From positions 181,313 to 245,312 of the forward strand of contig CAWJKZ010000024.1 of the NCBI GenBank assembly GCA_963843575.1: a stretch of 64,000 nucleotides of DNA. Reading direction: 5' to 3'. Below, one piece after another: positions 15,575-63,839 of the stretch; positions within the stretch are counted from its first letter, which is position 1, and each line of letters opens with the position of its first letter. The notes under the pieces were generated by a model. That model did not search any database and had not been told where the DNA came from. It worked only from the letters and a program-made list of their open reading frames with translations. This DNA is from an uncultured Acidobacteriota bacterium (GTDB lineage: Bacteria; Acidobacteriota; UBA6911). A program made the position numbers and the translations under genes.

Positions 15575-15576
15575 CA

Positions 15577-46299: not shown

Positions 46300-46321
46300 G
46301 TTTTTCTAATGCGGGATTTTG

Positions 46322-48507: not shown

Positions 48508-48540
48508 ACGGACTGCTCCCTGGCGGGGATGCGCTCCCCG

Positions 48541-49056
48541 CTACCGGTCGGCGAATGGATTTCCCTTGCCCTGAATCAGGGTAGATTGATATCTCGTAAA
48601 AGGATTGCTGTAATCCTGTCCCAGGCTGCGGAACGGGTTCCCCGCTTCCTTGAGGCGGGCCTGCTCGACCGCGCCGTACTGCGCGATGGCGGTCAGCTCA
48701 CTCTGCCGGGCCGCGTCCCTGTACTGGCGGACTCCCACGGTCAAGGCGAGGAGCATGAACAGCGACAGGCTGACGCCGACGGCGAACTGCCGCGGCCTGG
48801 ACAACACTCCGAACCAGCCGGGGGCCGGCCGCGGCTCCTCGAGCCTCGCCCGGATCCGGAACCACTGCGCGGCGGGCACGTCGATCTCGAGCCCCGTCGA
48901 GCGGAACAGGAGGTCGACCGACCGCCACCGGGCGAGTTCGTCCCGGCAGCCCGCGCACGTCTCCAGGTGCCCGCGGATCTCCTCGAAGCGCGCGTCGGCG
49001 CGGTCGCCGTCGAGGTAAGGGCCGAAATCTGCGGGATGGTCTGTTCTCGCGTTCAT
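48541..49056 (-). CDS. Zinc-finger anti-sigma factor
   Basis: HLETCAGCRDELARW motif, one TM helix (FAVGVSLSLFMLLALTV), and a 4-nt overlap with the upstream ECF sigma gene. Confidence 0.65.
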   Translation of the reverse strand: MNARTDHPADFGPYLDGDRADARFEEIRGHLETCAGCRDELARWRSVDLLFRSTGLEIDVPAAQWFRIRARLEEPRPAPGWFGVLSRPRQFAVGVSLSLFMLLALTVGVRQYRDAARQSELTAIAQYGAVEQARLKEAGNPFRSLGQDYSNPFTRYQSTLIQGKGNPFADR

Positions 49057-49829: not shown

Positions 49830-51036
49830 ATGTCTCTCCCCAACCAGGACCGCCGTTCCCGCACCGGGCGGGCAGTCTGCCTGCTGGTTCGCAACCTTAT
49901 AATGGCCACGTCTGTTTTCGTCCTCTGGGCCGCCCCCATTATCGGCATGGACCAGGACGCTGTCCAGAGCACGGCACAGCCGGCCGACCCGGAGGCGCAG
50001 GTGCGGGCACGGATCACGGCCTACTGGGAAGCCATGCAGCGGGAGGACTACCGGGCGGCCGCGCAGTTCGTCCACCCGGCCTCCCGCGACCTTTTCGAAC
50101 ACAGGGTCCCCAAGTCCCGGATCGACCGGTGGAGCATCCAGAAGCTCCAGTTCAACGACGAGCGCACCGTGTGCGACGCTACCATCCTCGTTTCGAAACC
50201 CGTAGCCATTTTCGAATCCAACGTCGTCGACTGGCCCTTGAAAAACCAGTGGGTGCTGTTCGAGGGGGACTGGTACTTCAAGATCCCCTGGGACAGCAAG
50301 ACGAACCCGGCGCTCGAGTTGTTCCGCGCCCAGCAGGACACGGCCGCGAAAACGACCGAGATCCGCGAAGCCAGGCCGAGCACCGCCGCGCCGTCGGCCG
50401 AAGCGATCGAGCGGCTCGCCGCCACCCGGTTTTTCACGCCCGGACCCGGCCAACCCCTCGGTCGTCCACAACGGGCAGAAAAGCGTGTTCCGCTATCACT
50501 ACACCAACGCCAAGGCCACGGCGACGCGCATCGTCTCGGTCCACTCCGACTGCCACTGCACCAGTGTCAAGCAGGAGTACCCGGAGATCGCTCCGGGCGC
50601 GGAGGGGACAGTGGAGGTGACGCTGGACACCTTCGGGCTGCCGCTGGGATCTGTCCAGAAGGAAGTGTATGTCACGTTCGCCGACCAGGCGGATCCCCAG
50701 GTGATCCGGATCTCGGTCAAGAACCAGCCCAATTTCGCCGTCAGCCCCGCCCGGGTCAACTTCGGGCTGGTGGCGCGCGGCAAACCAGCCGAGGCGTCGC
50801 TCCGGATCGTCAACCAGAGCGGCCAGCCCGTGAAGCTGCTGTCGCACCTCAAATCCGACCCGAAGCTCCAGGTCGTCGTGGACAAGCCCGCCCTCGAACC
50901 GGGCGAGACGGCGACCGTGACGCTCCGCTACGACGCCTCCTCCGCCGGCGAGTTCCTTGACAGCCTCATGCTTCAGACGGACCTCGCGGCGGAACCCCTG
51001 ATCACGGTGGCCGTCCGCGGCGAAGTCGCCCGCTGA
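49830..51036 (+). CDS. Secreted protein with an NTF2-like N-terminal domain and a C-terminal DUF1573 domain (single frameshift near 50440, or two adjacent genes)
   Basis: DUF1573 signature NGQKSVFRYHYTNAKATATRIVSVHSDCHCTSV. A repeated Ig-like fold continues to 51036. Confidence 0.5.
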
Positions 51037-51039: not shown

Positions 51040-51488
51040 TCGGAGAGAAGAACGCGGATTTCAGGGATCTAACGGATTCACGCGGCCTGCCACCCATGCC
51101 TTTATCTTCGTTCCGCGTGGATCCGCGGCCATCCGCGTCCGCAAAAGCAGGTTCTTTTTTTAATCAAATAGCTTTTTCCCCGCAACTTTTTGCCGATTTG
51201 TGCATCTGTGACCGTGTTGTTTGAGGTTCCCGTACGTGGGGACCCCCAGGACGACGTCCCTGAAATCAGTTGACATTCCCCGCGCTGGCTGTTAGGGTTG
51301 CGCCGCCAGTATGGGTAAGTCGTACGTTGTAGCATGTCCCTTCGAGAAGGGGTGTGCCGGCTTGTTTGCCGTTCGCCCTACAACGCGCCTTAGCTCGAAA
51401 TTACTTGGACCTCTAGATGAACCTATCGGACGCACGAAAGTCTGGTAGTCGTTACCCAATGCTCACCATTTACTTACGGAGAAAGCGT
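51040..51488 (+). promoter_or_regulatory. Long (about 450 nt) lower-GC 5' leader or promoter region of the putative surface-protein gene
   Basis: Locally lower GC. TTGACA at about 51271 with TAGGGT 17 nt downstream. RBS GGAGAAAG precedes the ATG at 51489. Confidence 0.35.
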
Positions 51489-53204
51489 ATGACTTTGTTG
51501 AAAGCTAGCAGAATGCCCTTGCTGGCGGGATTGCTATGTCTCCTGCTGCTGGGCTTCGCTGGAGCTTCCTACGGCGCGGTTCGCTTCGACGTTGTATCGT
51601 CGCCGACTGAAGTGATCAATACCGGCCGCTCGGAAGTCACGGGTTCCGTGAACCTGATCGTTCGCGGGGCTGGCAACGTGACGGGCACCTCCCTGGGCGG
51701 CAACACCCAGATCGGGTTTATTTACACGAACCCGGCCATGCAGATCGACAACACGACGACGTCCGGGATCAAGCTGGTCTACAGCGCCGGATTTACGTCC
51801 GCCAGCCCGCACTTCGCGCCTGTCGCGGTTGAGAACTTCGACTTGAACGGCCGCTGCTCGGGCCGTATCACGATCGTTCTTGCCGCCGGTGCGCAGCCGG
51901 TCGAAGGCGACTTCATCCGTGTCGAGGGTGTGCGTGGCAGAATCGATGCCAGCCTTGCCGTGACCCCGGGGACCGACCTCTACGTTGACCTGCAGTCGAT
52001 CAACGACCCGACCTCGGCCAACTTCACCCCGGACCGCGTCCGCGTGGCGAAGTCCCTGGACGGCATGAACGTGGCGATCTCGCCCGATACCCTGTTGCTC
52101 TGCTTCCCGACCACCGGCAGACCGCCGTCAGGCACCGAGAAGCCCAGCTACTACATCAGGATCACCGAGGGCTTCGCCCGCGCGTTCGTGGATCAGGATG
52201 CCAACAACGACGGCTCCTTGGCCACCGACCGCGTCGACTCCGGCAACGGCCTGATCGGCGTTACCACCGCTCCGGGCGCCCTGGGTGCACCGAACAACTC
52301 GACCCAGTTCCTCGTCTGGTTGGAATCCATCCCGACCAGCGTGGACGACATCGAGTGGCAGGCTTCCGTAGGAACCGACTCCTCGACCGGCGCCAGCCTC
52401 GTTCTGGTTGAGGACAGCGCCACCTTCTCCTCGACTCTCGGTGTGGCCACCGCCCTCTATTCTTATGAGAGCGTCAACCAGACCGACGTCAGCGATATCG
52501 CGGTTGAGGTCTTTACGCTCATGCCGACGATCATCCTGAAGAGCACCACGGCGACCACGACCGGAACGATTATGGCCGGCGTGAGCCTGGCTCCTGCGGT
52601 CGATGCACTCTCCGGCTGCCCGGTCCCGACCGGTTCGTCCACGATCGGCCGTCCTCGCTTCCTGAGAATGTTCGAGTCCGACGCGGTTGCCACCAACAAC
52701 CCGCCGGATGACCCGCTGAAGCCCTATGCTCAGGTCATTCGCTGCAACTGCTACATGCTGTTCACCTATGTCACTGCGACCGCCGACTTCAACACCGGCA
52801 TCGCGGTGGCCAACACCACTGGTGACACGGCTCCGTTCGGCGTGAACGAGGCTCCGGATCAGCTTGGTAAGATCACCTTCTACTTCTACGATCGTACCGC
52901 CGGCTACGTGGGGACGACCGAGACCGCCGCTGATATTCAGACCGGCCGTAGCTATGTTGATCTGGTTTCCAACATCCTGCCGACTGGTGTGACCAGCTTC
53001 TCCGGTTACATCATCGCCAAGGCGGACTTCCAGTTCTGCCACGCCTTCGCCTTCATCGCGGACACCGGGTTCGCTTCGATCGCGCACGGCTACGTGGCGA
53101 ACATCATTCCTGACCCGGCGATCAAGAACATCAACGATCGCAGGGCTCCCGCCGCGGCTGCGGACGTGTTCAACATTCCTGCGGGTGAAAGCCTGAACAA
53201 CTAG
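51489..53204 (+). CDS. Putative abundant secreted/surface protein (S-layer-like candidate), 571 aa
   Basis: Intact. Signal peptide MTLLKASRMPLLAGLLCLLLLGFAGASYGA. Thr/Ser/Gly/Ala-rich with beta-rich composition and no enzyme motifs. Strong terminator immediately downstream. Confidence 0.45.
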   Translation: MTLLKASRMPLLAGLLCLLLLGFAGASYGAVRFDVVSSPTEVINTGRSEVTGSVNLIVRGAGNVTGTSLGGNTQIGFIYTNPAMQIDNTTTSGIKLVYSAGFTSASPHFAPVAVENFDLNGRCSGRITIVLAAGAQPVEGDFIRVEGVRGRIDASLAVTPGTDLYVDLQSINDPTSANFTPDRVRVAKSLDGMNVAISPDTLLLCFPTTGRPPSGTEKPSYYIRITEGFARAFVDQDANNDGSLATDRVDSGNGLIGVTTAPGALGAPNNSTQFLVWLESIPTSVDDIEWQASVGTDSSTGASLVLVEDSATFSSTLGVATALYSYESVNQTDVSDIAVEVFTLMPTIILKSTTATTTGTIMAGVSLAPAVDALSGCPVPTGSSTIGRPRFLRMFESDAVATNNPPDDPLKPYAQVIRCNCYMLFTYVTATADFNTGIAVANTTGDTAPFGVNEAPDQLGKITFYFYDRTAGYVGTTETAADIQTGRSYVDLVSNILPTGVTSFSGYIIAKADFQFCHAFAFIADTGFASIAHGYVANIIPDPAIKNINDRRAPAAAADVFNIPAGESLNN

Positions 53205-53221
53205 GCTTATCCCACACGGGA

Positions 53222-53268
53222 TCAATAAAGGGGGTAGCTCCCTCACCGGGGGCTACCCCCTTTTTGTG
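53222..53268 (+). terminator. Rho-independent terminator
   Basis: GGGGGTAGC-tccctcaccgg-GGGGCTACCCCC followed by TTTTTGT, 18 nt after the stop. Confidence 0.8.
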
Positions 53269-53297
53269 TGTCGCAATAAGCAGGCGCCAAATAAAGC

Positions 53298-53385
53298 AAG
53301 TGGGTCCGGGCTTCAGCCCGGACGCCTTTTGCACTTGTACATAGTGCAAGTCAAACTACGTCCGGGCTGAAGCCCGGACCCACTT
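53298..53385. mobile_element. MITE-like element, short copy (arm, about 34-bp palindromic spacer, inverted arm), followed by a REP-like half-arm at 53389-53407
   Basis: AAGTGGGTCCGGGCTTCAGCCCGGACG at 53298-53324. Its reverse complement is at 53359-53385. Spacer contains the palindrome TTGCACT-TGTACAT-AGTGCAA. Confidence 0.75.
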
Positions 53386-53428
53386 GGGAGGCGGCGCCGC
53401 ACTCCAATTTCTGCTATCATCCCCTGCC

Positions 53429-54154
53429 GTGTACAAGAGCCGCCCCATCACCGTCGTCATCCCGTGCCTGAACGAGGAGAAAGGCATCGTCGAGGTACTC
53501 TCCCGCATGCCCTCGTTCGTCGACGAGGTCATCGTCGTCGACAACAACTCGACCGACCGCACCCCCGAGCTCGCCCGCCGACACGGAGCGCGCGTGATCC
53601 ACGAGAAGGTCCGGGGATACGGCCGCGCTTACAAGACCGGCCTCCTCGAAGCTCAAGGGGACATCGTCGTCACGCTCGACGGCGATCACTCCTACCCGGT
53701 GGACGCTATTTCCTATCTCCTGGAAATCTTCCTCCGCTCCGAGGTCCGCTTCGTGTCGGCCTCGCGGTTCCCTCTGAAGAACCGGCGCGCGATGTCGGCG
53801 AAGCACTGGCTGGGCAACCGGCTCCTGAGCCTGGCGATGTCGGTCCTCTATTTCCGCTGGGTCCGCGACTCCCAGTCCGGCATGTGGGTGTTCGAGCGGG
53901 ACAGCCTCTCCCGGATGCACCTCGAGAGTGACGGCATGGCCTTCAGCGAGGAGATCAAGATCGAGGCCATCCGCAACCGGCACATCGGGTTCAAGGAGAT
54001 CTACATCGACTATTCCAACCGCATGGGCGAGATCAAGCTGCAGCCGTGGCGCGACGGCTGCCGCAACCTCGCGTTCCTGGTAAAGAAGCGGTTTGGGTGG
54101 CGGCGACGGCGCGACGCGGCGCCGCTCGTGCAGAAATCGGAGACCCCGCGGTGA
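53429..54154 (+). CDS. Glycosyltransferase family 2 (Dpm1/polyprenyl-phosphate sugar synthase-like)
   Basis: GTG start. Motifs ITVVIPCLNEEKGIVEV and DEVIVVDNNSTDRTPELA. DGD is the DxD motif. Confidence 0.8.
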   Translation: MYKSRPITVVIPCLNEEKGIVEVLSRMPSFVDEVIVVDNNSTDRTPELARRHGARVIHEKVRGYGRAYKTGLLEAQGDIVVTLDGDHSYPVDAISYLLEIFLRSEVRFVSASRFPLKNRRAMSAKHWLGNRLLSLAMSVLYFRWVRDSQSGMWVFERDSLSRMHLESDGMAFSEEIKIEAIRNRHIGFKEIYIDYSNRMGEIKLQPWRDGCRNLAFLVKKRFGWRRRRDAAPLVQKSETPR

Positions 54155-55200
54155 CGACCAGGGTGGACGGGACCGATCGACCCGGCGCCGCGGCTCCCTG
54201 TCCCGTTTGCCGGCGCGCCGACGCGCCGTTGTACGGCGTCGGACGCGACCGCCTCTTCGGCCTTGCGCCGGGTGAATACCGGCTGTACCGCTGCCGCGGC
54301 TGCCGCTGCATATTCCAGCACCCCCTCCCCCCGGAGCCGGCGCTGGCGGGCTTCTACCCCGAGGAATACTGGTGGGACGGCGCGGCTGGGAACCGCGGGG
54401 CCGCTTCCGGGATGCTCGCGCGGGCCGAGCTTCTCTATCGAGAAACCGTCGTGCGCGACCACGTGCGCTTCGTCGCGCGCTGTGCCGGAGCCGGGGGCTC
54501 CGGTCTCCGGCTCCTCGACATCGGCTGCGGGAGCGGCACTTTCCTGGCGATGGCGGGGCGGCGCGGCTTCCAACCCTGCGGCATGGATGTCTCCGAGCGC
54601 GCGGTCGCGGCCGCCCGGCGGCAGTACGGTCTCGACGTGCGCCACGGCGGGATCGGCAGCGCGCTCTGGGAGCCCGCGAGCTTCGACCTGGTGACGATGT
54701 TCCACGTCCTCGAGCACGTCCGCGACCCGCGCGGCGCGCTCGACTATGCCCGCGGCCTGCTCAAACCCTCGGGACGGCTCGTCGTGCAGGTCCCCAACGC
54801 GAGATCGCTCCAGGCCAGGGCGTTCGGGACGCGCTGGTACGGTCTGGACGTGCCCCGGCACCTCATCAACTTCAGCGCCGACGGCCTGGAGATCCTGCTG
54901 CGCGAGGCCGGACTGGAGATCCGCGCCGTCTCCCGTTTTTCGCTCCGCGACAACCCTGCGGCCCTCGCCTCGAGCGCGGCCCCGGCCCTGGACCCCATCG
55001 GCCGCAAGGGGCGGCGGCGCGACGCCGGCCGGCCGGCGGCCCGGGCCGCCCTCGAGCTCGCCTACTTCTCCCTGACCCTCCTGGCCCTGCCGCTCGCCCT
55101 CGCCGAGAGCGCCTTCGGGCTGGGCGCGACCCTCTGGGTCGCCGCAAGCCCGACCAACAGAAGAATAAGTGGGTCCGGGCTTCAGCCCGGACGCCTTTAG
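54151..55200 (+). CDS. Class I SAM-dependent methyltransferase. Its C-terminal tail runs into the MITE arm.
   Basis: GTG start overlapping the GT2 stop. Motif I LLDIGCGSGTF, plus DLVTMFHVLEHVRDP and KPSGRLVV. The last residues (...RISGSGLQPGRL) are translated from MITE sequence. Confidence 0.75.
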   Translation: MTTRVDGTDRPGAAAPCPVCRRADAPLYGVGRDRLFGLAPGEYRLYRCRGCRCIFQHPLPPEPALAGFYPEEYWWDGAAGNRGAASGMLARAELLYRETVVRDHVRFVARCAGAGGSGLRLLDIGCGSGTFLAMAGRRGFQPCGMDVSERAVAAARRQYGLDVRHGGIGSALWEPASFDLVTMFHVLEHVRDPRGALDYARGLLKPSGRLVVQVPNARSLQARAFGTRWYGLDVPRHLINFSADGLEILLREAGLEIRAVSRFSLRDNPAALASSAAPALDPIGRKGRRRDAGRPAARAALELAYFSLTLLALPLALAESAFGLGATLWVAASPTNRRISGSGLQPGRL

Positions 55201-55335
55201 ATCCGCCTCATCTAGAAACAGTTTCACGTCATAGTTTCAGCAAACTACGTCCGGGCTGAAGCCCGGACCCACTTGTTTTTCCGGCAGGCCGGGTGGTTCA
55301 ACCGCTGGACGACCTCTGAAGCCCGGACCCACCTG
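55168..55335. mobile_element. MITE-like element, full copy (arm, about 54-bp spacer, inverted arm, about 40 bp, partial third arm)
   Basis: Arms at 55168-55194 and 55249-55275. Partial arm at 55316-55335. Same layout as the 46132 copy. Confidence 0.75.
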
Positions 55336-55384
55336 AGTTTTCATTTGCGCGCTGCCGTGACCACGGATAGGATCTTTCCCCATC

Positions 55385-56383
55385 ATGGCAAATCTCCGGC
55401 TGACGAAAGTGAAAGTGCTGGTGACCGGCGGCGGCGGGTTTATCGGCAGCCACCTGTGCGAGCTCTGCGCCCGCGAGGGGGCGGAGGTGCGGGCGTTCGT
55501 CCATTACAACTCGCGCTCCGACTGGGGCATGCTCGAGCTCCTGGACCGGCGCGTGCTCAAGGGTATCGAAGTGCAGTCCGGGGACCTGCGCGACGCGGAA
55601 GCGGTACGCCGGGCGGTGCGCGGATGCAACTTCGTGTTCCACCTCGGGGCTTTGATCGGCATCCCCTATTCGTACGTGAACCCGCTCGATGTCGTGTCCA
55701 CGAACGTGCTGGGGACTGCGCACGTGCTGCAGGCAGGCCGCGAGTTTTCGATCGAACGCATCGTGCAGACTTCGACGAGCGAGGTGTATGGCACAGCGCA
55801 GTACGTGCCCATGGACGAGGCGCACCCGCTCGCGCCGCAGTCCCCTTACGCGGCGTCGAAGGTGGCGGCCGACAAGCTGGCTGAAAGCTACCACAGGGCT
55901 TACGGCCTCCCTGTCACCATCGTGCGGCCGTTCAACACCTACGGCCCGCGCCAGTCGCCCCGTGCCGTTATCCCGACGATCGTGCTGCAGGCCCTGCGGG
56001 GCAAACGGATTCGGTTGGGTAACACGGGCCCGAGCCGCGACCTGACCTTCGTCACCGACACGGCGCGCGGTTTCGTCGACGCCGCCTTGAGTCCGGCCGC
56101 GGAGGGGCAGACGGTGCAGCTGGGTTCGGGGACCGAGACCTCGGTGCGGGACTTGGTCGCCGCCGTCGCGGCGATTCTCGGCAAGGAACTTGTCGTCGTG
56201 CGCGAGCGCCGGCGTGAACGACCCCGGGGAAGCGAGGTGGAGCGCCTGTATGCGTCCAACCGGCGCGCCGCCGACCTGACAGGCTGGCGGCCGACGGTGC
56301 CGCTGGCGCGGGGTCTGCAAAAAACGATACACTGGTTCCGTGGCCGGACGGCCCTTTACAAAACGGATCTTTACCATGTCTAG
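55385..56383 (+). CDS. NAD-dependent epimerase/dehydratase (SDR family; UDP-sugar 4-epimerase or 4,6-dehydratase-like)
   Basis: Rossmann motif VLVTGGGGFIGSHL and catalytic YAASK. Intact 332 aa. Confidence 0.85.
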   Translation: MANLRLTKVKVLVTGGGGFIGSHLCELCAREGAEVRAFVHYNSRSDWGMLELLDRRVLKGIEVQSGDLRDAEAVRRAVRGCNFVFHLGALIGIPYSYVNPLDVVSTNVLGTAHVLQAGREFSIERIVQTSTSEVYGTAQYVPMDEAHPLAPQSPYAASKVAADKLAESYHRAYGLPVTIVRPFNTYGPRQSPRAVIPTIVLQALRGKRIRLGNTGPSRDLTFVTDTARGFVDAALSPAAEGQTVQLGSGTETSVRDLVAAVAAILGKELVVVRERRRERPRGSEVERLYASNRRAADLTGWRPTVPLARGLQKTIHWFRGRTALYKTDLYHV

Positions 56384-57170
56384 CCCCACAGAACCGCAAA
56401 TCGTCGTCGTGCTGCCGGCGTACAATGCGGCGAAGACCCTCGAGCAGACCTACGCCGATTTGCCCAAGGACAAGATCTCGAAGATCATCCTGGTGGACGA
56501 CGTCAGCCAGGACCAGACCGTGGAGGTCGCCAAGGCCCTCGGGCTTTCGGTCGTGATCCACGTGCAGAACCGGGGTTACGGCGGCAATCAGAAGACGTGC
56601 TACCTCGAGGCGCTCAAGCACGGCGCGGACGTCGTGGTGATGCTCCACCCCGATCACCAGTACGACTCGCGCCTCGTCCCCGAGCTCGTGCGCCCCATCC
56701 TGGAGGGGCGCGCCGACATGGTGATGGGCTCGCGGATCATGAACGGTCGCGCCCTCCAGGGGGGCATGCCGAAGTGGAAGTACCTGGCCAACCGGGCGCT
56801 CACCATCACCGAGAACTTTGTCTTCCGCACCCGGCTGACCGATTGCCACAGCGGATTTCGCGCCTACAGCCGCAAGCTGCTCTCCACCGTCCCGTTCCTG
56901 CTCAACTCCGACGATTTTGTCTTCGACTCCCAGATGATCGCCCAGGCGGTGCACCTGGGATTCACCATCACCGAGATCGCGGTCCAGGCTCGTTATTTCC
57001 CCGAAGCCTCCAGCGTGAACTTCAAGGTGAGCACCGTTTACGGCATCAAGACGCTGGGCGTGCTCGGGAGTTTCCTGCTGCAGCGGTCCGGCGCAGCCCA
57101 CTTCCGCATCTTCGAACGCACTCTGCCGGAGGTGATCAGCAAGTACTACCATGAGGGGATCTTCCGCTGA
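56376..57170 (+). CDS. Glycosyltransferase family 2
   Basis: Motifs IVVVLPAYNAAKTLEQTY and ILVDDVSQD. Confidence 0.8.
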   Translation: MSSPTEPQIVVVLPAYNAAKTLEQTYADLPKDKISKIILVDDVSQDQTVEVAKALGLSVVIHVQNRGYGGNQKTCYLEALKHGADVVVMLHPDHQYDSRLVPELVRPILEGRADMVMGSRIMNGRALQGGMPKWKYLANRALTITENFVFRTRLTDCHSGFRAYSRKLLSTVPFLLNSDDFVFDSQMIAQAVHLGFTITEIAVQARYFPEASSVNFKVSTVYGIKTLGVLGSFLLQRSGAAHFRIFERTLPEVISKYYHEGIFR

Positions 57171-57197
57171 GGCCCGGCCGTCCTGAAAGCCCGGCCC

Positions 57198-58292
57198 GTG
57201 CACCCGCGCCCGAAGGGTGGAGCAGAGCGATTGTATCTACAGTGCGAGCACAACTCGAAACAACCGGGACTCGTTCCCGGTCTGGTTTCGGTCGTGGTGG
57301 TGAACTGGAACGGGATGGGGTACCTGCCCGAGTGCCTCGAGTCCGTCCGAATGCAGTCGTACGACCGGAAGGAGATCGTGGTCGTCGACAACGGCTCGAC
57401 CGATGGCTCGCGCGAATGGCTGCGCGCCCACCCGCCCGAGTGCGGCCGCCTGGTCCAGCTCGACTCGAACCGCGGCTTCGCCGGCGGCGTGAACGCGGGC
57501 ATCCGCGTGTCGTCCGGTGAATACGTCGCGCTGCTGAACAACGACGCGGTCGCCGAGCGCGACTGGCTGACGCACCTGGTGGCCTCCGCGGCCGATCCCG
57601 CCGTCGGTATGGTCGCCTCGAAAATCCTGTTCTACGACCGGCGCGGCGTGATCGACAAGACGGGCCACCTGCTTTACCCCGACGGTCTGAACCGCGGCCG
57701 CGGGGCGGGCGAGACCGACAGCGGGCAGTACGACCGGGACCTGGAGATCCTGTTCCCGGACGGGTGCGCGGCCCTCTACCGCCACCGGATGCTCCACGAG
57801 ATCGGGCTGTTCGACGAAGAGTTCTTCGCCTACGGCGACGACGCGGACCTCGGGCTGCGGGCCTGCTGGCAGGGCTGGAAGTGCGCCTACGCGCCCGGGG
57901 CCCGGGTCTACCACCGCCACTCCAGCAGCCTGGGGAAATACTCGCCCGAAAAGGCGTTCCTGGTGGAGCGCAATCGGTTCTGGGTCGCGGTGAAGCTCCT
58001 GCCCTGGCACCGCCTCGCCCTTTCGCCGTTCTTTACAATGTGGCGCTTTTGCTGGCACATTAGCAGTGTTTTCGCAGACAGGGGGCTGGCGGGGGGCGTC
58101 GCCCGGGACCACAACGCAGGCAGGCTGGCGTGGGCCTTGGTGCGCGCTTACGTCTCCGGCATATCCGGCCTGATCAACATCCTGCGCAAGCGCAGGGACG
58201 TGTTCCAGACGAGGCGCATCCGTTCGGCCGAATTCTGCCGGCTGATCCGCAAGTACCGGATTTCGGCCCGGGAACTCGCGCTGCGCGACTGA
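57198..58292 (+). CDS. Glycosyltransferase family 2 (rhamnosyl/GalNAc-transferase-like; start uncertain)
   Basis: Motifs VSVVVVNWNGMGYLPECLESV, IVVVDNGSTDGS and a DxD-like DDADL. Confidence 0.75.
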   Translation: MHPRPKGGAERLYLQCEHNSKQPGLVPGLVSVVVVNWNGMGYLPECLESVRMQSYDRKEIVVVDNGSTDGSREWLRAHPPECGRLVQLDSNRGFAGGVNAGIRVSSGEYVALLNNDAVAERDWLTHLVASAADPAVGMVASKILFYDRRGVIDKTGHLLYPDGLNRGRGAGETDSGQYDRDLEILFPDGCAALYRHRMLHEIGLFDEEFFAYGDDADLGLRACWQGWKCAYAPGARVYHRHSSSLGKYSPEKAFLVERNRFWVAVKLLPWHRLALSPFFTMWRFCWHISSVFADRGLAGGVARDHNAGRLAWALVRAYVSGISGLINILRKRRDVFQTRRIRSAEFCRLIRKYRISARELALRD

Positions 58293-58297
58293 TCACT

Positions 58298-59350
58298 ATG
58301 GCCACGACGGTCTTTCTCACCGGGGGTACGGGCTACCTCGGCGGCACGCTCCTGCGTCAGCTCCTGGACGCGGGCTACGCCGTGCGCGCGCTGGTCCGGC
58401 GCGCGCCGGCCCCCCTCCCCGCGGGCGAGGTGGAGCCGGTTGTGGGCGACCTTTCGGATCCGGACCGCCTGGCCGGGCCCATGAGGGGGTGCGCCGCCGT
58501 GTTTCACAGCGCGGCCCTGGTCTCGTGCTGGGCCCGCGACCGCCAGGACTTTTACCAGACCAACGTCGACGGTTTGCGCAACGTGTTGCGCGCCGCGGCG
58601 GCTGCGGGGACGGGAACAGTAGTCTACACGTCGTCGTTCTTCGCGCTCGGCCCGGCGGAACTGCCGGGGGCGCGCGAGGACTCCGGGGCCGAGCCCACAA
58701 GTGGGTACGGGCTTCAGCCCGGACGTAGTTTGCGTTGGCTTGGCGGCGTGTGCGGAACGCCCCCCTATCTTCACAGCAAGTTTCTGGCGCGCGCAGAGGC
58801 CCGGCAGGCGAAGGCGTCGGGATTCCCGATCGTGATCCTGTATCCCGGGGTGATCTACGGCCCGGGGCGCCGCACCGCCGGGAACCTCGTCGGCCGCCTC
58901 GTTGCGGACTTCGTGTCGGGGCGCATGTCCGCGCTGCTTGGCAACGGCCGCCAGATCTGGTCCTTCGCTTTTATCGAGGATGTCGCCCGCGGCCACCTGC
59001 GGGCCATGGAGCGGGCCGCCGGCGGGGGCGAGTTCGTCCTCGGCGGCGACAACGTGTCGCTGCGCGGGTTTTACGAGATCCTGGCGCGGCTTTCAGGCCG
59101 GCCCGCGCCGCGGCTGCGCCTCCCCGCGGTGCTCGGCGCCCTGGCCGGCGCGCTCGAGTTCGCGCGCGCGCGGGCCCTCGGCTCGATCCCCGCCGCCACC
59201 CCGGCCACCGTGCTGGCGATGTACAAGAGCTGGGCTTGCGATTCGGGCAGGGCGCAGGCGGAACTGGGGTACGACTGCACGCCCCTGGAACAGGGGCTGC
59301 GCCTCACGCTGGACGCGATGGACGTGCCCACCGGCGAGGGGCGCCAATGA
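58298..59350 (+). CDS. NAD-dependent epimerase/dehydratase (SDR) carrying an in-frame solo MITE-arm insertion
   Basis: Rossmann motif VFLTGGTGYLGGTLLRQL and catalytic YLHSK. The 27-bp MITE arm at 58699-58725 encodes an SGYGLQPGRS-type insertion just upstream of the catalytic Tyr, without breaking the frame. Confidence 0.75.
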   Translation: MATTVFLTGGTGYLGGTLLRQLLDAGYAVRALVRRAPAPLPAGEVEPVVGDLSDPDRLAGPMRGCAAVFHSAALVSCWARDRQDFYQTNVDGLRNVLRAAAAAGTGTVVYTSSFFALGPAELPGAREDSGAEPTSGYGLQPGRSLRWLGGVCGTPPYLHSKFLARAEARQAKASGFPIVILYPGVIYGPGRRTAGNLVGRLVADFVSGRMSALLGNGRQIWSFAFIEDVARGHLRAMERAAGGGEFVLGGDNVSLRGFYEILARLSGRPAPRLRLPAVLGALAGALEFARARALGSIPAATPATVLAMYKSWACDSGRAQAELGYDCTPLEQGLRLTLDAMDVPTGEGRQ

Positions 59351-59393
59351 TCCTGCGTTCGTGGAACGCCGCCGGAGCGGATCGGAGTTGCGC

Positions 59394-60113
59394 GTGCTGA
59401 ATTCACGGGTGAAAAGCCTGGCCCGGCGCATCCTGCCGGACGTCGTCGCCGGATGGCTCGACCCGGTCGAGCGCACCATCGACTCCGAGGTGCGCCGTGC
59501 CGCCGCGCTGGTGGGCGACGGCCAGGTCGTGCTCGACGCCGGCGCCGGGGAAGCGCGGCACCGCGGCTTTTTCCAGCGCGGGCGCTATGTCGCCCTGGAT
59601 GCCGGGTCCGGCGACCCGGCCTGGGATTACTCGGGGCTCGACGTCCGCGGGGACCTGGGGTGCCTCCCGCTGCGCGCCCGCAGCGTGGACGGGGTGCTCT
59701 GCATGGTGGTCCTCGAGCACACGCGCGACCCGCGCCGCACCCTGGCGGAGTTCGGGCGGGTTCTCAAACCCGGCGGTTTCCTGGTCATGGTCGTGCCTTT
59801 CCTCTGGGAGGAACACCAGGCGCCCCACGACTACTTCCGGTTCACCCGCCACGGCGTGCGGCTCCTCTTCGAGGGCCTCCCGTTCAGGATCGACCTGCTG
59901 TCCCCGCTCGGCGGCTTTTTCCGCGTTTGCGCGCGCCGCTGTGTGAACCTGCTCGGCTTCTTCCAGCAGGGGTGGCGCTGGCCGCTCTTCGTGCTGCTCG
60001 CGCCGTTTTTCGGGCTGCTCTTCCCGGTGCTCCTCCATTTTCTCGACGGGCTGGACCGTTCCAGGGAATTTTCCCTGGGTTTCCAGATCCGGGCGACCAG
60101 GGACCAGGACTGA
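59394..60113 (+). CDS. Class I SAM-dependent methyltransferase (Methyltransf_11-like)
   Basis: Motif I VVLDAGAGEARH, plus VDGVLCMVVLEHTRDP and KPGGFLVMVVP. The C-terminus is hydrophobic. Confidence 0.65.
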   Translation: MLNSRVKSLARRILPDVVAGWLDPVERTIDSEVRRAAALVGDGQVVLDAGAGEARHRGFFQRGRYVALDAGSGDPAWDYSGLDVRGDLGCLPLRARSVDGVLCMVVLEHTRDPRRTLAEFGRVLKPGGFLVMVVPFLWEEHQAPHDYFRFTRHGVRLLFEGLPFRIDLLSPLGGFFRVCARRCVNLLGFFQQGWRWPLFVLLAPFFGLLFPVLLHFLDGLDRSREFSLGFQIRATRDQD

Positions 60114-61705
60114 TGCCGGAGACAAAGACCAGCCCGGTCCTCGACCACGGCCTCGTCCTGCTGCTCTGTGCCGCGACGTGGGGCATCAACGCCGCGTGGC
60201 TCAGGATGGACACCCGCCCCCCGGTCTGGGACATGGCCATGCACCAGGCGTACGCCCTAAACTACCTGCCGGATGGACAGCCGCCGGGGTTTGCCCACGA
60301 GCGCTCGGGCACCTATCCGCCGTTCGTCCACCTCGTCATCGCGGCGTTCTACGCAGCCCTGCACCCGGGGCGCAACGTCGCGGCCCTGGCGAACCTCCCG
60401 GCCACGCTGTTGCTGCTGTGGGCGATCTATCTCCTTGCCCGGGACCTGTCCGGGGCATCCGCGGCACGCTGGGCGTGTTTCTTCACGGCGGCGACGCCCT
60501 TCCTGCTCTGGATGTCCAGGGAGACGGTCCTCGACTACTGGCTTTCCGCGTGGTTCGCGGTGGCGCTCCTCCTGCTGCACCGTTGTGGTTCGTTCGAATC
60601 AAGGCCCGCCGCCCTCTTGCTCGGCCTCGTCATCGGTCTCGGGATGCTGACGAAGTGGTTTTTTGCCGGGCTCCTGGTCTTTCCCCTGGGCTTCGTGCTG
60701 GTGCGGCAAAGGATTTGGCGCGACTCTGAACGCATGGTCCGGCTGTTCGACGCGCTTCTGGTGGCGGGGTTCGCGGCGGGCGTGTGGTATCTGCCGAACA
60801 TCCCCCGGCTGATGGCCTACTTTGGCGCGAACATGTCGATCGGGGCGCGCGAGGGGGAACCGCCGGTGCTGTCGTGGCAGTCCGCCATCTACTACCTGCG
60901 GCTGCTCGAGGGCTACCAGTTGTTCGCGCTGCTGTTTGTCGTCGCCGCGGCCGGGACGGCGGTGGCGCTGAGGAGACGGCTGCTGTCCGACCCGGCCTTC
61001 TGGGCCGTGTCGGTCGCAGGCGGGTGGCTCGTCTTCACGCTGCTCAGGACCAAGGACCCCCGTTTCACCATGCCGCTGCTCGGGCCGCTGATGATCGCCT
61101 CCGGAGCGTGGCTGTCCTCCTGGCGCCACGATTTCACGCGCGGCGCGGCCAAGGTGGCGGTCGTCGCACTTCTGTGCGTCCAGGCCTACGCCGTCAATTT
61201 CGGCATCCCGTGGCTCCCGCGCGCCGTGGTGCTGGCCCGGGGATATCAGGGCTCGCTGCGCTGGGACTGGAACCTCTACCTGCAGGACTATTTCGGCATT
61301 CTCGGGCCGCCGCGGCGCGAAGACTGGCGCCAGCACGAGATCCTGGGCCGGATCGCGCGGCATGCGGCTGAAAACCGCGAGCGCCCGTCCCTTGCCGTGG
61401 TCCCGGACCTGCCGCATTTCAGCGCCGCGAATTTCCTGCTTCAGTCCCGGCTGGACGGTTCGCCCATGAGGGTCGACCACCCGCAGTCCGCGGCCGCTGG
61501 AGTCAGGGCCTTCGACGGTTTCAGCTATGTGCTGATGACCGAAGGGGACCAGGGGATGTCGTGGACGACCGGCGCCGCTCGCGCCCTGAACCAGATTATC
61601 GTGGACGAGCACGACGTTTTCCGGATACTGGAGCTCTACCCGCTGCCAAACGGGGATTACGTCCGGCTCTATCACATCGACCGGGAGGGAAGAACCGGTG
61701 GGTGA
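60113..61705 (+). CDS. GT39/GT83-family (PMT/ArnT-like) integral-membrane glycosyltransferase
   Basis: Intact 530 aa. About 11 TM helices in the N-terminal 320 aa, then a soluble C-terminal domain. TGATG overlap with the upstream gene. Confidence 0.6.
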   Translation: MPETKTSPVLDHGLVLLLCAATWGINAAWLRMDTRPPVWDMAMHQAYALNYLPDGQPPGFAHERSGTYPPFVHLVIAAFYAALHPGRNVAALANLPATLLLLWAIYLLARDLSGASAARWACFFTAATPFLLWMSRETVLDYWLSAWFAVALLLLHRCGSFESRPAALLLGLVIGLGMLTKWFFAGLLVFPLGFVLVRQRIWRDSERMVRLFDALLVAGFAAGVWYLPNIPRLMAYFGANMSIGAREGEPPVLSWQSAIYYLRLLEGYQLFALLFVVAAAGTAVALRRRLLSDPAFWAVSVAGGWLVFTLLRTKDPRFTMPLLGPLMIASGAWLSSWRHDFTRGAAKVAVVALLCVQAYAVNFGIPWLPRAVVLARGYQGSLRWDWNLYLQDYFGILGPPRREDWRQHEILGRIARHAAENRERPSLAVVPDLPHFSAANFLLQSRLDGSPMRVDHPQSAAAGVRAFDGFSYVLMTEGDQGMSWTTGAARALNQIIVDEHDVFRILELYPLPNGDYVRLYHIDREGRTGG

Positions 61706-63839
61706 TTCTGCCATGCGGCCCTTTGTCTGCGATCCCCGCCTCTCGGCCTTTCGCGTCCAGCGCGACCTGGCGCTGCTCGTGCTCGTGGTCGCGGCTTTCT
61801 CGTTGCCGTTCCTGGGGCAGCCGTTCCACATGGACGACAACTTCTACCTGGACATGGCGCGCAACGCCCTCGACAAACCGCTGTTCCCCAACGACACCCC
61901 CTACGTGTTCGAGGGCCGTCTCCTCCCCGACATGGGCTCGCACTCACACCCGCCGCTGCACACGTACTTCCTGGCGCTGGTGCTCCGGTTGACGGGCGGC
62001 GGGGCGGGGACCGAATGGGTGTTTCACGTCTGCGCCCTGATATATCCGCTGATGGCGGTGGTCGGTTTTTACTTCATTTCGATGCGGTTCCTGGAAACGC
62101 CGGTCTGGCCCGCCCTGATGCTGGCGTGCACGCCGCTCTTCATGGTGATGCAGCACACCCTGATGACGGACGTCCCGACCCTCGCCTGGTGGCTCGTCGC
62201 GATCGCCCTGTTCCTGCGCGGCACCGACCGGGGCAGCCGGCGCCTGCTCGCCGCCAGCTCGGCCTTCCAGTTCGCGGCGATGTTCACGAGTTACCAGTCG
62301 GTGGCGCTTACGCCCCTGCTCGCGTACTACCACGCGCGCAAGGGCGGCCGGCGCGCGGGCTGGTTCGCGCTGGCGGCCCCGCCGCTTCTGCTGGCCGCGT
62401 GGTTCGGGATGAACTACGCGCACTACGGCCGCTTCCTCCTGGCCGACACCGCCGGGTACATCGCCTCGCGCGACCCTCGTTCCGCCGCCGCGCTCTGGAC
62501 GAAGCTTCTCGCCCTCCTCCAGTACCAGGGCTGGCTGGCGGTGTTCCCCGTTTTCCTGCTGTACGTCTTCGCCCGGGGCCTGCGCGGGCGCGTGCCGGCG
62601 GCGGCGGTACTGGCGGTGATCTGCGTGACGCAGGCGGCCGTCCCGCAGTATCGCATCCCGGACAAGGCCATTTTCGCGGTCGGCCTGCTGGCCGGGGCGG
62701 CGGTTCTCGTGCACCTGGCCCGTTTCTGCGCTATGGCGTTCAGAAGGCCGGCGGAGTCCGGTTTCGGGCCGGTCGAGGGGCAGTTCATCGCGCTCTGGTA
62801 TTTCGGGGCGGCCACCTTCTGCCTGCTGATCTTCACCGAGGGCTCCGCGCGCTACATCCTCCCGCTCGTGCCGCCGCTGCTGATCTATTTCTTCCGCCGG
62901 CTCGAGATCGCGGAGGCCTCGGAGTACCGCAGCGTACCCCGGCCGCTGCTCGGCGCCGCCATGGTCGCCAGCGGCAGCGTCGTGATGTCTCTCGGCTGGG
63001 GGCTGCTTCTCTCGCACGCCGACCAGGAGTTCGCGCGCGTGTATCCTCGGGCCGCCGGCGAATTCGCCCGCATCACCGGCGGGATGGACTCCTATTACGC
63101 GGGCGAATGGGGTTTTCGCTATTATTTCGGCCGCGAGGGTGCGAGGCAGCTCCCCGTCGACGAATCGGCGGCCCGCGGCGGCAGCTGGCTGGCCCGCCCC
63201 AGGCTCGCGCTCCCCTACGACGTCCCCGCCGCGCTCTGGACGATGGCCATGCCCGTTCAGGCGCTCTCCTACGACGTAGGCACCCCCATCCGGCTGCTCG
63301 ACTCGCAGGCGCCGGCGGGTTTCTACTCGACCTCGTGGGGGCTGGTCCCCTTCTCGCTCTCCCGCGCCAGCCTTGACATCATCGACGTGCGGCAGGTCAA
63401 CTATCTTGTCGAGCGGCTCCCGTGGGCCCGGATCGATGCTCCTCCCGGAGACGCTCCCTGGCCGGGATTCGCCGAGATCCAGGGCTCCGCGCCACTCGCC
63501 CTCCTGGTGAAGCCGGGCACCCGGGTGCGCTACCCGTGGGAAGGCACCCGCGCGATGGAGTTGCACCTGAAGCTCGGCATCCCCGCCGACTCCTGGGCGG
63601 AAGGCGAAGGGAGGCCCCTGGACGTCCGGATTGTCCAGCGCGACTCGTCGGGCGATACCCTGGCCCGCTTCGAGAAGACCCTCAACCCGGGCATCCGCAA
63701 GGAAGACAGGGGCTGGGTTCCGGTCAGCCTCGGACTCGCGGGAGGCTCGGGTCCGGACGGTGTGCTGGAATTCGAAGTGCGCGGCGCTGCCGGAGGAAGG
63801 GCCGCATTCGCGCAGGCTCTGCTGAGGGCGGCCCAATGA
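61698..63839 (+). CDS. GT39/GT83-family (PMT/ArnT-like) integral-membrane glycosyltransferase, second paralog (713 aa)
   Basis: HMDDNFYLDMARN motif in the first periplasmic loop, multiple TM helices, and a large C-terminal soluble domain. Intact. Confidence 0.6.
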   Translation: MGDSAMRPFVCDPRLSAFRVQRDLALLVLVVAAFSLPFLGQPFHMDDNFYLDMARNALDKPLFPNDTPYVFEGRLLPDMGSHSHPPLHTYFLALVLRLTGGGAGTEWVFHVCALIYPLMAVVGFYFISMRFLETPVWPALMLACTPLFMVMQHTLMTDVPTLAWWLVAIALFLRGTDRGSRRLLAASSAFQFAAMFTSYQSVALTPLLAYYHARKGGRRAGWFALAAPPLLLAAWFGMNYAHYGRFLLADTAGYIASRDPRSAAALWTKLLALLQYQGWLAVFPVFLLYVFARGLRGRVPAAAVLAVICVTQAAVPQYRIPDKAIFAVGLLAGAAVLVHLARFCAMAFRRPAESGFGPVEGQFIALWYFGAATFCLLIFTEGSARYILPLVPPLLIYFFRRLEIAEASEYRSVPRPLLGAAMVASGSVVMSLGWGLLLSHADQEFARVYPRAAGEFARITGGMDSYYAGEWGFRYYFGREGARQLPVDESAARGGSWLARPRLALPYDVPAALWTMAMPVQALSYDVGTPIRLLDSQAPAGFYSTSWGLVPFSLSRASLDIIDVRQVNYLVERLPWARIDAPPGDAPWPGFAEIQGSAPLALLVKPGTRVRYPWEGTRAMELHLKLGIPADSWAEGEGRPLDVRIVQRDSSGDTLARFEKTLNPGIRKEDRGWVPVSLGLAGGSGPDGVLEFEVRGAAGGRAAFAQALLRAAQ

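What the first reader, a model, noticed from the sequence alone, without database searches (positions are those of the whole stretch)
51040..63839. Candidate surface (S-layer-like) glycoprotein gene with a long leader and strong terminator, followed by a protein-O-glycosylation-type locus with two GT39/ArnT-like enzymes
The 51489-53204 gene has a signal peptide, Thr/Ser-rich low-complexity composition, a roughly 450-nt lower-GC leader (typical of very highly expressed envelope protein genes) and a textbook terminator. About 200 bp downstream begins a 10-kb cluster of three GT2, two SDR epimerases, two SAM methyltransferases and two PMT/ArnT-family membrane glycosyltransferases. The latter are the enzyme type that transfers sugars from polyprenyl-phosphate carriers onto protein Ser/Thr or lipid A. 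The arrangement suggests a dedicated glycosylation system for the adjacent secreted protein, with methylated sugars.
Basis: inference. Interest (0 to 1): 0.6.

Follow-up and report, generated by a model that had tools for sequence, protein, structure and literature searches.

The report
Secreted acidobacterial surface protein beside glycosylation genes
An uncultured soil acidobacterium encodes a probably abundant, uncharacterised secreted surface protein that is tied to a type II secretion system, but the sugar-transfer gene cluster next to it is a widely conserved envelope pathway, not one demonstrably dedicated to that protein.

Summary
A 571-aa signal-peptide protein (51489-53204) has a conserved ribosome-binding site and 5' UTR and a 16-bp terminator. 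A 10.4-kb cluster follows, with three GT2, two SDR, two methyltransferase and two GT-C (PMT_2) genes.

The protein has no Pfam, NCBIfam or PDB sequence match. It models as four beta-sandwich domains, is acidic (pI 4.4) and is 19% Ser+Thr.

All 12 orthologous loci with enough flank read: type II secretion operon, ECF sigma module, DUF1573, this gene (one or two copies), glycosylation cluster. In the window a 30-kb insertion separates the secretion operon from the rest. In 56 of 63 Bryobacterales loci, a protein sharing only the C-terminal domain lies directly after the secretin gene gspD.

That domain has 1,232 representative clusters. It sits at protein C-termini and ends in a fixed G-E-x-x-x-[NQH]-COOH tail.

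The glycosylation cluster occurs without the protein in four other acidobacterial contexts. Wherever the downstream flank was read, it lies upstream of the tuf/ribosomal genes.

Best reading: a secretion-system-exported, S-layer-like protein next to a core polyprenyl-phosphate-sugar/GT-C pathway whose acceptor is unresolved.

The parts
3902..15600 (+). Type II secretion operon. Contents: gspE (3902-5354, frameshifted), gspF, pseudopilins including a GspH-like gene (7179-9306), GspL-like PilM_2+PilN (10004-11401), GspM (11405-11989), an unknown possibly GspC-like gene (12014-12910), and the secretin gspD (12921 to about 15600, frameshifted).
   Evidence: Pfam T2SSE, T2SSF, GspH, N_methyl, PilM_2/PilN. 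tblastn with L002/L003 GspM, the unknown gene and the secretin. In relatives this operon lies directly upstream of the FG-GAP gene.
46206..47899 (-). FG-GAP repeat protein, split over two frames in the window.
   Evidence: Pfam FG-GAP_3/FG-GAP. Syntenic in all orthologous loci.
48025..49742 (-). TPR protein (48025-48507), zf-HC2 anti-sigma factor (48541-49056) and ECF sigma factor (49053-49742).
   Evidence: Pfam. Syntenic in all orthologous loci.
49830..51036 (+). DUF1573 / HYDIN-VesB-like Ig protein, with a frame change near 50440-50485.
   Evidence: Pfam PF07610 and PF22544 on the second frame. The orthologues are intact genes of 387-433 aa.
51270..51298 (+). Sigma-70-like promoter candidate, TTGACA-17 nt-TAGGGT.
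   Evidence: Read from the sequence. Conserved in L001, L006, both L002 copies and L005. The strict consensus scan did not call it.
51423..51448 (+). Conserved 5' UTR stem-loop, CUAUCGGAC...GUCUGGUAG.
   Evidence: RNAalifold keeps 7 pairs. One pair changes A-U to G-C in 3 sequences. Support is modest.
51478..51481 (+). Ribosome-binding site GGAG, inside the invariant block ACGGAGAAAGCGTATG.
51489..53204 (+). Secreted multi-beta-sandwich protein of 571 aa, with a signal peptide of about 30 aa.
   Evidence: 202 homologues, all unnamed and acidobacterial. No Pfam, NCBIfam or PDB sequence hit. AF2 pLDDT 85. Only generic Ig, pilin and cohesin fold hits.
52701..53123 (+). Conserved C-terminal beta-sandwich domain, about residues 405-545, with motifs CxC..NTGIAVANTT..FQFCHAFAFIAD..GYVANIIPDP.
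53178..53201 (+). Extreme C-terminal tail PAGESLNN, carrying the G-E-x-x-x-[NQH]-COOH motif.
   Evidence: Conserved in 75 of 75 aligned orthologues and across distant family members. Disordered in the model.
53227..53271 (+). Intrinsic terminator.
   Evidence: 16-bp stem, 10 GC pairs, T run.
53297..53386 (.). Palindromic repeat element (REP/MITE-like) between the terminator and the first GT2.
   Evidence: 35-nt arms, 91% complementary. Further copies at 46125-46245 and 55160-55280.
53429..54154 (+). GT2a, a polyprenyl-phosphate hexose synthase-like GT2.
   Evidence: PF00535. Best NCBIfam hits are AglJ and Dol-P-hexose transferase, below their cut-offs. Best PDB hit is Dol-P-Man synthase 5mlz. 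75-95% identical across loci.
54151..55200 (+). SAM methyltransferase MT1 (Methyltransf_23). Accessory gene, absent in L002/L012.
55385..56383 (+). SDR1, a LegB-like NAD-dependent sugar 4,6-dehydratase. Accessory gene.
   Evidence: TIGR04180 at 412 bits against a cut-off of 475. Presence varies between loci.
56376..57170 (+). GT2b, a second polyprenyl-phosphate hexose synthase-like GT2.
57198..58292 (+). GT2c, a generic GT2 (Glyco_tranf_2_3).
58298..59350 (+). SDR2, an HpnA-like epimerase/reductase. Found only in the window and L006.
59360..60113 (+). Methyltransferase MT2 (Methyltransf_11) with C-terminal hydrophobic helices. The start coordinate is approximate.
60113..61705 (+). PMT2a, a GT-C glycosyltransferase of 530 aa.
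   Evidence: PF13231 at 42 bits against a cut-off of 26.1. No PDB sequence hit.
61698..63839 (+). PMT2b, a GT-C glycosyltransferase of 713 aa with a C-terminal periplasmic domain resembling a carbohydrate-binding module (CBM).

Best explanation
Two modules lie side by side.

Module A consists of the type II secretion (T2SS) operon, an ECF sigma / anti-sigma / TPR / FG-GAP block, a DUF1573 gene and the gene at 51489-53204. That gene makes a Sec-exported, disulfide-containing protein of four beta-sandwich domains. I infer that it is the main cargo of the linked T2SS and ends up as an abundant cell-surface (S-layer-like) protein. I also infer that its conserved C-terminal domain and fixed C-terminal tail serve export or surface attachment.

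Module B (53429-63839) is a periplasmic-face glycosylation pathway. I infer that GT2a and GT2b load sugars onto polyprenyl phosphate in the cytoplasm. The SDR and methyltransferase genes vary the sugars from strain to strain. The two GT-C enzymes then transfer the sugars to an acceptor outside the inner membrane.

Module B is a core feature of this acidobacterial group, not a system dedicated to the adjacent gene. The surface protein may be one of its acceptors, but the acceptor is not identified.

Shown here: gene content, synteny, folds and family distribution. Inferred: secretion route, abundance, surface location, sugar donors and acceptor.
For: Module A:
- 12 of 12 orthologous loci keep the order gspL-M-?-D, FG-GAP, TPR, anti-sigma, sigma, DUF1573, target (one or two copies).
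- 56 of 63 Bryobacterales loci have gspD on the same strand, a median of about 410 nt upstream of the ORF carrying the shared C-terminal domain.
- Sec signal and six near-invariant Cys.
- Acidic, Thr/Ala/Val/Gly/Ser-rich composition.
- Invariant RBS, conserved UTR and a strong terminator.
- Tandem paralogues in L002, L004 and L012.
- Variable N-terminal part with a conserved C-terminal domain.
- Precedent: the S-layer gene slr4 lies immediately downstream of a dedicated T2SS operon, and Aeromonas S-layers use a dedicated T2SS (PMC7821379).

Module B:
- Pfam and NCBIfam calls.
- Dol-P-Man synthase is the best PDB relative of GT2a and GT2b.
- PMT2b has a GT-C fold.
- No Und-PP-type initiating transferase, Wzx or O-oligosaccharyltransferase is among the nine genes.
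- Accessory SDR and methyltransferase content varies between loci.
- The same cluster lacks the target directly upstream in L081/L082, L084, L087 and L089. tuf and ribosomal/secE-nusG genes lie downstream in L081, L083, L087 and L088.
Against: - There is no expression, proteomic or microscopy evidence, so abundance, lattice formation and surface location are unproven.
- Six conserved Cys and 50-70% identity across the family are unusual for S-layer proteins.
- In the window itself, the T2SS operon is 30 kb away from the rest of module A.
- The Bryobacterales sample was drawn with a peptide pattern (FQ[FY]CH...). It may pick out only the secretin-adjacent subfamily.
- Adjacency in 12 of 12 loci could reflect inheritance within one clade.
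- No flippase gene was recognised in the cluster.
Confidence: 0.45

Rival explanations
1. The cluster is a glycosylation system dedicated to the adjacent protein. The two GT-C enzymes O-glycosylate its Ser/Thr in the periplasm with (methylated) sugars from polyprenyl-phosphate carriers, before export.
For: - Adjacency in 12 of 12 orthologous loci. Tandem duplicates of the protein are always placed between DUF1573 and GT2a.
- 19% Ser+Thr, with Gly/Thr/Ala/Pro-rich variable loops of low model confidence.
- Strain-variable sugar-modifying genes.
- PMT_2-TPR fusion proteins sit in the same cluster in L089. TPR domains usually bind proteins (own knowledge).
- Precedents from own knowledge: P. aeruginosa TfpW, a GT-C encoded next to its pilin substrate; actinobacterial Ppm1/Pmt; Haloferax AglD/AglS acting on the S-layer glycoprotein.
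Against: - Orthologous clusters of equal similarity have no such protein directly upstream in four of the eleven cluster-bearing contexts seen with enough upstream flank.
- GT2a and GT2b (75-95% identity) are more conserved than the protein (48-86%).
- A strong terminator separates the gene from the cluster.
- Bryobacterales relatives have no such cluster within 10 kb.
- PMT2b carries a CBM-like domain, which suggests a glycan acceptor.
Confidence: 0.2
2. The cluster decorates lipopolysaccharide (lipid A, core or O-chain) or another envelope glycolipid or polysaccharide, as ArnC/ArnT-type pairs do. The protein itself is not glycosylated. At most, the modified glycan is what holds the surface protein on the outer membrane.
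For: - In L084 the gene just upstream of the toxin-antitoxin pair, ssrA and the cluster is a GT9 heptosyltransferase.
- The cluster occupies a core-genome position next to tuf and is independent of the protein in four contexts.
- Source annotations call the homologues ArnT-like. This is only a label.
- Own knowledge: the Rhizobium RgtA-E, Bordetella LgmABC and Francisella FlmF/FlmK systems have the same logic. Caulobacter keeps O-antigen genes needed for S-layer attachment next to rsaA and its transporter.
Against: - No ArnT or ArnC equivalog model reaches its cut-off, and arnA/B/D-type genes are absent.
- No lipid A or core genes lie in the window's cluster.
- The 12 of 12 adjacency with the protein would then be indirect.
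Confidence: 0.3
3. The protein is not a cargo or surface-layer subunit. It is an accessory part of the secretion machine, such as a secretin-associated cap or belt, or a soluble secreted binding protein of modest abundance.
For: - Tight linkage to gspD across two acidobacterial orders.
- A Deinococcus T2SS has extra belt and cap proteins around GspD (abstract of PMC10828601).
- No catalytic domain was found.
Against: - It has its own promoter-like site, a conserved UTR and a strong terminator.
- Tandem paralogues exist and the N-terminal part is highly variable.
- The same C-terminal domain ends many unrelated large repeat proteins with DUF11 or lectin domains. This fits a sorting or anchoring tag better than a machine part.
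Confidence: 0.12

Closest known systems
[quoted passage not shown]
   Same: Sec signal peptide. The gene lies immediately downstream of a T2SS operon in relatives. Acidic major surface-protein candidate with conserved synteny across species.
   Different: No sequence or specific fold relationship. Here an ECF sigma / anti-sigma / DUF1573 block lies between gspD and the gene. The protein has a conserved C-terminal domain and tail. Abundance and lattice formation are not shown. In this window, 30 kb separate the operon from the gene.
Polyprenyl-phosphate-sugar synthase plus GT-C transferase pairs: ArnC/ArnT, Ppm1/Pmt, GtrB/GtrC, AglD/AglS
   Same: Two DPM1-like GT2 enzymes and two GT-C enzymes with an acidic motif after the first transmembrane helix. 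There are no en-bloc (Und-PP, Wzx, oligosaccharyltransferase) components. Sugar-modifying enzymes lie alongside.
   Different: No equivalog model is reached. PF02366, MIR and PMT_4TMC domains (GT39) are absent, as are the arn genes. No flippase was recognised. PMT2b has a CBM-like periplasmic domain. Donors and acceptors are unknown.
C-terminal sorting domains of surface proteins, such as the Bacteroidota T9SS C-terminal domain
   Same: A beta-sandwich domain of about 130 aa at the extreme C-terminus of many otherwise unrelated secreted proteins. The nearest relatives are genetically linked to one secretion system.
   Different: Different phylum, secretion system and sequence family, with no Pfam hit. 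There is a fixed G-E-x-x-x-[NQH]-COOH tail. No processing enzyme was identified. The function is entirely inferred.
TM1070 / Anabaena sensory rhodopsin transducer fold (PDB 1nc7, 2ii7)
   Different: 8-15% identity. Those are small cytoplasmic proteins. Which domain matched was not printed; I assume it is the C-terminal one.

Membership tests
S-layer protein (functional class) | Exported protein with a signal for crossing the envelope. | tested here: met
   Sec-type N-terminus. Linked T2SS.
S-layer protein (functional class) | Known S-layer anchoring or lattice domains (SLH, CWB2, RsaA-like and others). | tested here: not met
   No Pfam or NCBIfam family, and no PDB sequence hit with a 75-sequence profile. 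Fold hits are generic.
S-layer protein (functional class) | Most abundant envelope protein, forming a two-dimensional lattice. | not testable with these tools
   Only indirect signs: conserved RBS and UTR, a strong terminator, and a shifted third-position codon pattern, T3 0.15 against about 0.06 in neighbours.
Type II secretion substrate | Sec/Tat signal peptide and periplasmic folding. | tested here: met
   Signal peptide, six near-invariant Cys and compact beta domains.
Type II secretion substrate | Genetic linkage to a T2SS operon. | tested here: met
   12 of 12 orthologous loci are adjacent. 56 of 63 distant loci are directly downstream of gspD. In the window the operon is on the same strand, and gspD ends about 36 kb upstream of the gene start.
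Type II secretion substrate | Export abolished without the T2SS. | not testable with these tools
   Needs genetics or heterologous reconstitution.
GT39 protein O-mannosyltransferase (PMT) | PF02366 PMT core with MIR and PMT_4TMC domains. | tested here: not met
GT-C fold glycosyltransferase using a lipid-phosphate sugar donor | Multi-span GT-C fold with an acidic motif in the first external loop. | tested here: met
ArnT (GT83) lipid A aminoarabinose transferase system | ArnT and ArnC equivalog scores, and arnA/B/D partners. | tested here: not met
   No NCBIfam family for either GT-C. The ArnC model gives 18-23 bits against a cut-off of 529. No formyltransferase, aminotransferase or deformylase is present.
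Polyprenyl-phosphate hexose synthase (DPM1/AglJ/GtrB-like GT2) | GT2 catalytic domain most similar to Dol-P/Und-P hexose synthases. | tested here: inconclusive
   The best NCBIfam hits are AglJ, Dol-P-hexose transferase and PpgS, all well below cut-offs. The best PDB relative is Dol-P-Man synthase 5mlz, E 8e-11 and 7e-9. The lipid acceptor was not tested.

The most novel reading that the evidence does not exclude
The conserved C-terminal beta-sandwich domain, together with its fixed-distance G-E-x-x-x-[NQH]-COOH tail, is a previously undescribed sorting signal of Acidobacteriota. [quoted passage not shown] This would be a T2SS counterpart of the T9SS C-terminal domain. The tail could be read by a machine component such as the GspC-like protein encoded just before gspD.
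Probability: 0.2. Interest if true: 0.8.

Novelty: new variant of a known kind. Interest (0 to 1): 0.55.

Why it matters
- A 2024 survey states that the existence of S-layers in Acidobacteriota is 'ambiguous' (10.1101/2024.05.28.596244). This family gives a concrete candidate for a major surface protein, with its export route, in abundant uncultured soil lineages.
- How T2SS cargo is recognised is a long-standing open question. A domain-plus-tail signature genetically tied to gspD would make that question directly testable.
- The neighbouring cluster is a conserved, uncharacterised GT-C pathway. It is likely to shape the acidobacterial cell surface, whichever acceptor it uses.

Tried and rejected
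- Rfam scan of 50500-53900. It returned only sub-threshold microRNA models that land on the palindromic repeat, so no known leader RNA is present.
- Whole-UTR fold. z = -1.2, not significant. Only a small hairpin has some covariation.
- The strict promoter scan found nothing. The promoter candidate rests on conservation alone.
- N-glycosylation sequons. 7 observed against 5.4 expected, so no enrichment, although N442-T-T is kept in 75 of 75 sequences.
- Short homologue contigs (1.8-2.1 kb) looked at first like transcripts. I rejected this as evidence. L001 includes the promoter region, and full-length hits on a short-contig collection must have that size.
- Chaperone-usher or Gram-positive pilin readings. 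TM-scores are below 0.25, and there is no usher or sortase.
- Type IV pilus reading of the PilM/PilN hits. GspK, GspH, the GspD N0 domain and T2SSM_b point to a T2SS instead.
- From memory, the Solibacter C-terminal domain (TIGR03437) seemed a candidate. No NCBIfam family hits the protein.
- PDZ or GspC search of the unknown gene before gspD. Only a faint T2SSC hit, E 0.017.
- The AFDB fold library was unavailable.
- Literature searches found nothing on this family or on DUF1573 function.
- Cluster-member names gave no genome link.

Full report
**Observation.** The region is as described. The ORF ending at 53204 can start at 51417. I prefer the ATG at 51489 because the block ACGGAGAAA[GA]CGTATG in front of it is identical in ten orthologous upstream regions. 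The product is 571 aa with a typical Sec signal. The mature protein is 541 aa, 56.7 kDa and pI 4.4, with Thr 10.9%, Ser 8.1% and Ala 10.9%.

It is Thr/Ser-rich but not low-complexity. An AlphaFold2 model built on 75 homologues has mean pLDDT 85 and pTM 0.82 and is all-beta.

The 452-nt upstream spacer has GC 0.55-0.57 against 0.62-0.73 nearby. A TTGACA-17-TAGGGT site at 51270-51298 is conserved in the closest relatives, so the transcribed leader is more likely about 185 nt. The last 80 nt of the UTR are conserved and contain a small hairpin with one compensatory pair. The whole-UTR fold is not significant.

The terminator at 53227-53263 has a 16-bp stem and a T run. All nine downstream domain assignments are confirmed above Pfam's cut-offs.

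**What the protein is.** It has no Pfam or NCBIfam family and no PDB sequence relative, even when searched with a profile. A search of 5.8 billion proteins gave 202 homologues. The 120 listed are 50-86% identical (apart from the window's own protein), none carries a functional name, and the few that are named come from Acidobacteria MAGs.

Six cysteines are nearly invariant, and the last eight residues, PAGESLNN, are conserved although the model shows them disordered.

**Context of the protein.** A scan of one genome per species found full-length orthologues only in uncultured Acidobacteriota/Terriglobia MAGs. In every orthologous locus with enough flank (L002-L009, L011, L012, L085, L086 and a JGI 34-kb contig) the order is the same:
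- the secretion genes gspL-like, gspM, an unknown gene and gspD;
- on the opposite strand, FG-GAP, TPR, anti-sigma and ECF sigma;
- then DUF1573 and this gene, in one copy or two tandem copies;
- then the glycosylation cluster.

The window holds the complete type II secretion operon at 3902-15600. About 30 kb of other genes (copper efflux, a multicopper oxidase, a kinase) separate it from the FG-GAP gene.

About 60 loci from Bryobacterales share only the C-terminal domain, roughly residues 380-545. In 56 of 63 of them, gspD lies on the same strand a median of about 410 nt upstream of the ORF that carries the domain. It is preceded there by gspK, gspL and gspM. The peptide pattern used for that scan may favour this subfamily, so the wider family may behave differently.

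**The C-terminal domain.** A full HMMER scan of 1.84 billion representative proteins with residues 400-571 found 1,232 clusters at E <= 1e-3, of which 338 are at E <= 1e-10. The domain almost always sits at the extreme C-terminus of proteins of 150-2,100 aa. Some of these proteins carry DUF11 repeats, a lectin domain, DUF5719 or DUF6519, and a few have four internal copies of the domain.

After the motif ...FQ[FY][AC]HG[FY]AF[IV]SD...GYLA..IPDP comes a variable stretch of 10-30 residues. The protein then ends in G-E-x-x-x-[NQH, sometimes Y/F]-COOH, for example GESLNN, GENEGH or GEQLGQ.

A disordered but conserved tail at a fixed distance from the carboxyl end suggests recognition by a partner protein. 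I therefore read the domain and tail as an export or anchoring determinant. This is inference. Paralogues that share only the N-terminal 390 residues are fused to other domains and lie elsewhere in the genome.

**The downstream cluster.** GT2a and GT2b score best against the archaeal AglJ, dolichyl-phosphate hexose transferase and PpgS models. All these scores are below the equivalog cut-offs. Their best solved relative is the Pyrococcus Dol-P-mannose synthase. GT2c is a generic GT2. SDR1 is close to the LegB-type 4,6-dehydratase model (412 bits against a cut-off of 475), and SDR2 is HpnA-like.

None of the nine genes was identified as an Und-PP initiating transferase, a Wzx flippase or an oligosaccharyltransferase. 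The pathway is therefore of the stepwise polyprenyl-monophosphate-sugar type. The methyltransferase and SDR genes come and go between loci, whereas GT2a, GT2b and both GT-C genes are in every locus that reaches far enough downstream.

**Is the cluster dedicated to the protein?** Sampling from the protein's side gives 12 of 12 adjacent. Sampling from the PMT2b side gives a different picture. Orthologous clusters of equal similarity (GT2a 75-85%, PMT2b 52-56% identity) have no such protein directly upstream in four contexts:
- L081/L082: ssrA, an integrase and an unrelated gene lie upstream.
- L084: a GT9 heptosyltransferase, a toxin-antitoxin pair and ssrA lie upstream.
- L087: a peptidyl-prolyl isomerase lies upstream.
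- L089: further PMT_2 and PMT_2-TPR genes lie upstream.

Seven contexts do have the protein upstream. Downstream, the cluster is followed by tRNA genes, tuf and ribosomal or secE-nusG genes in L081, L083, L087 and L088. L081's genome has about 50% GC against 67% here, so the cluster is conserved over a wide range of the phylum.

The cluster is thus a core envelope pathway next to which the secretion-and-surface-protein block sits in one clade. Three readings remain open. It may glycosylate proteins in general, including this one. It may act on this protein only. It may act on LPS or another glycan.
- The CBM-like domain and the independence of the cluster favour a glycan or general acceptor.
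- The perfect adjacency from the protein's side, the PMT_2-TPR fusions and the known precedents keep protein glycosylation plausible.

**Comparison with known systems.** The arrangement works like the Aeromonas and Slr4 cases, where an S-layer gene follows a dedicated T2SS operon (PMC7821379). A 2024 survey regards S-layers in Acidobacteriota as ambiguous. The cluster works like ArnC/ArnT, Ppm1/Pmt or AglD/AglS pairs, but it meets the membership criteria of neither GT39 nor ArnT.

**Verdict.** The core inference of a dedicated glycosylation system is only partly supported. The most interesting element is the T2SS-linked C-terminal domain and tail. Interest 0.55; new variant of a known kind.

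Noticed in passing
window 46125-46245, 53297-53386, 55160-55280; half sites at 29240-29259 and 58705-58724: A repeated palindromic element. Inverted 27-nt ends AAGTGGGTCCGGGCTTCAGCCCGGACG flank a 20-60-nt variable core. There are 8 matches to the 20-nt core against 0.01 expected. It sits in intergenic spots, and the 55.2-kb copy supplies the last codons of the MT1 ORF (...SGSGLQPGRL). It looks like a REP/MITE-type element.
   Followed up: partly
window 3902-5354, 12921-15600, 36361-39672, 41732-45799, 46206-47899, 49830-51036: Many genes are split between reading frames: gspE, gspD, a CusA-type pump, a multicopper oxidase, the FG-GAP gene and the DUF1573 gene. Their orthologues elsewhere are intact. 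Related MAGs have long-read-style contig names, so these are probably indel errors, not pseudogenes. The gene at 51489 and the glycosylation genes are intact.
   Followed up: partly
window about 15600-46100: About 30 kb lie between gspD and the FG-GAP gene that are absent at this position in ten related loci. The stretch includes zinc-ribbon proteins, a Ser/Thr kinase, CusA/CusB-type efflux genes and a large multicopper oxidase. It ends at a copy of the palindromic element. It may be an inserted metal-resistance island, and the 86%-identical relative L006 also lacks gspD within 5.5 kb.
   Followed up: no
L081 2520-2873 and L084 2414-2764 (minus strand): In genomes where the glycosylation cluster lacks the surface-protein gene, a tmRNA gene lies immediately upstream of GT2a. 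In L081 it is next to a phage-type integrase. tRNA-Thr/Tyr/Gly and tuf follow the cluster. The upstream side of the cluster therefore looks like an integration hot spot.
   Followed up: partly
L013 9641-12655; L014 9908-12832: These are paralogues of about 1,000 aa. They reuse the first 390 residues of the protein (about 50% identity) but continue into IPT/TIG and DUF5719-like regions in place of the C-terminal domain. They lie away from both the secretion and the glycosylation genes.
   Followed up: partly
L089 552-2831 and 14009-15877; JGI 34-kb contig gene 13579-15450: PMT_2 glycosyltransferases fused to long TPR arrays lie inside or beside the orthologous cluster in some genomes. This is the same architecture as the eukaryotic TMTC enzymes. 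In the JGI contig only the TPR part was recognised.
   Followed up: no
window 59360-60113: The second methyltransferase ends in two hydrophobic helices (WRWPLFVLLAPFFGLLFPVLLHFL), so it is probably membrane-anchored. It could act on a lipid-linked sugar.
   Followed up: no
window 12014-12910; L002 842-1771: The unannotated gene of about 300 aa just before gspD gives only a faint T2SSC (GspC) match in one orthologue, E 0.017 and below the cut-off. It may be a divergent GspC.
   Followed up: partly
window 52812-52820 (residues 442-444): The N-T-T sequon inside the ANTT motif of the C-terminal domain is kept in 75 of 75 orthologues, although sequons overall are not enriched.
   Followed up: no
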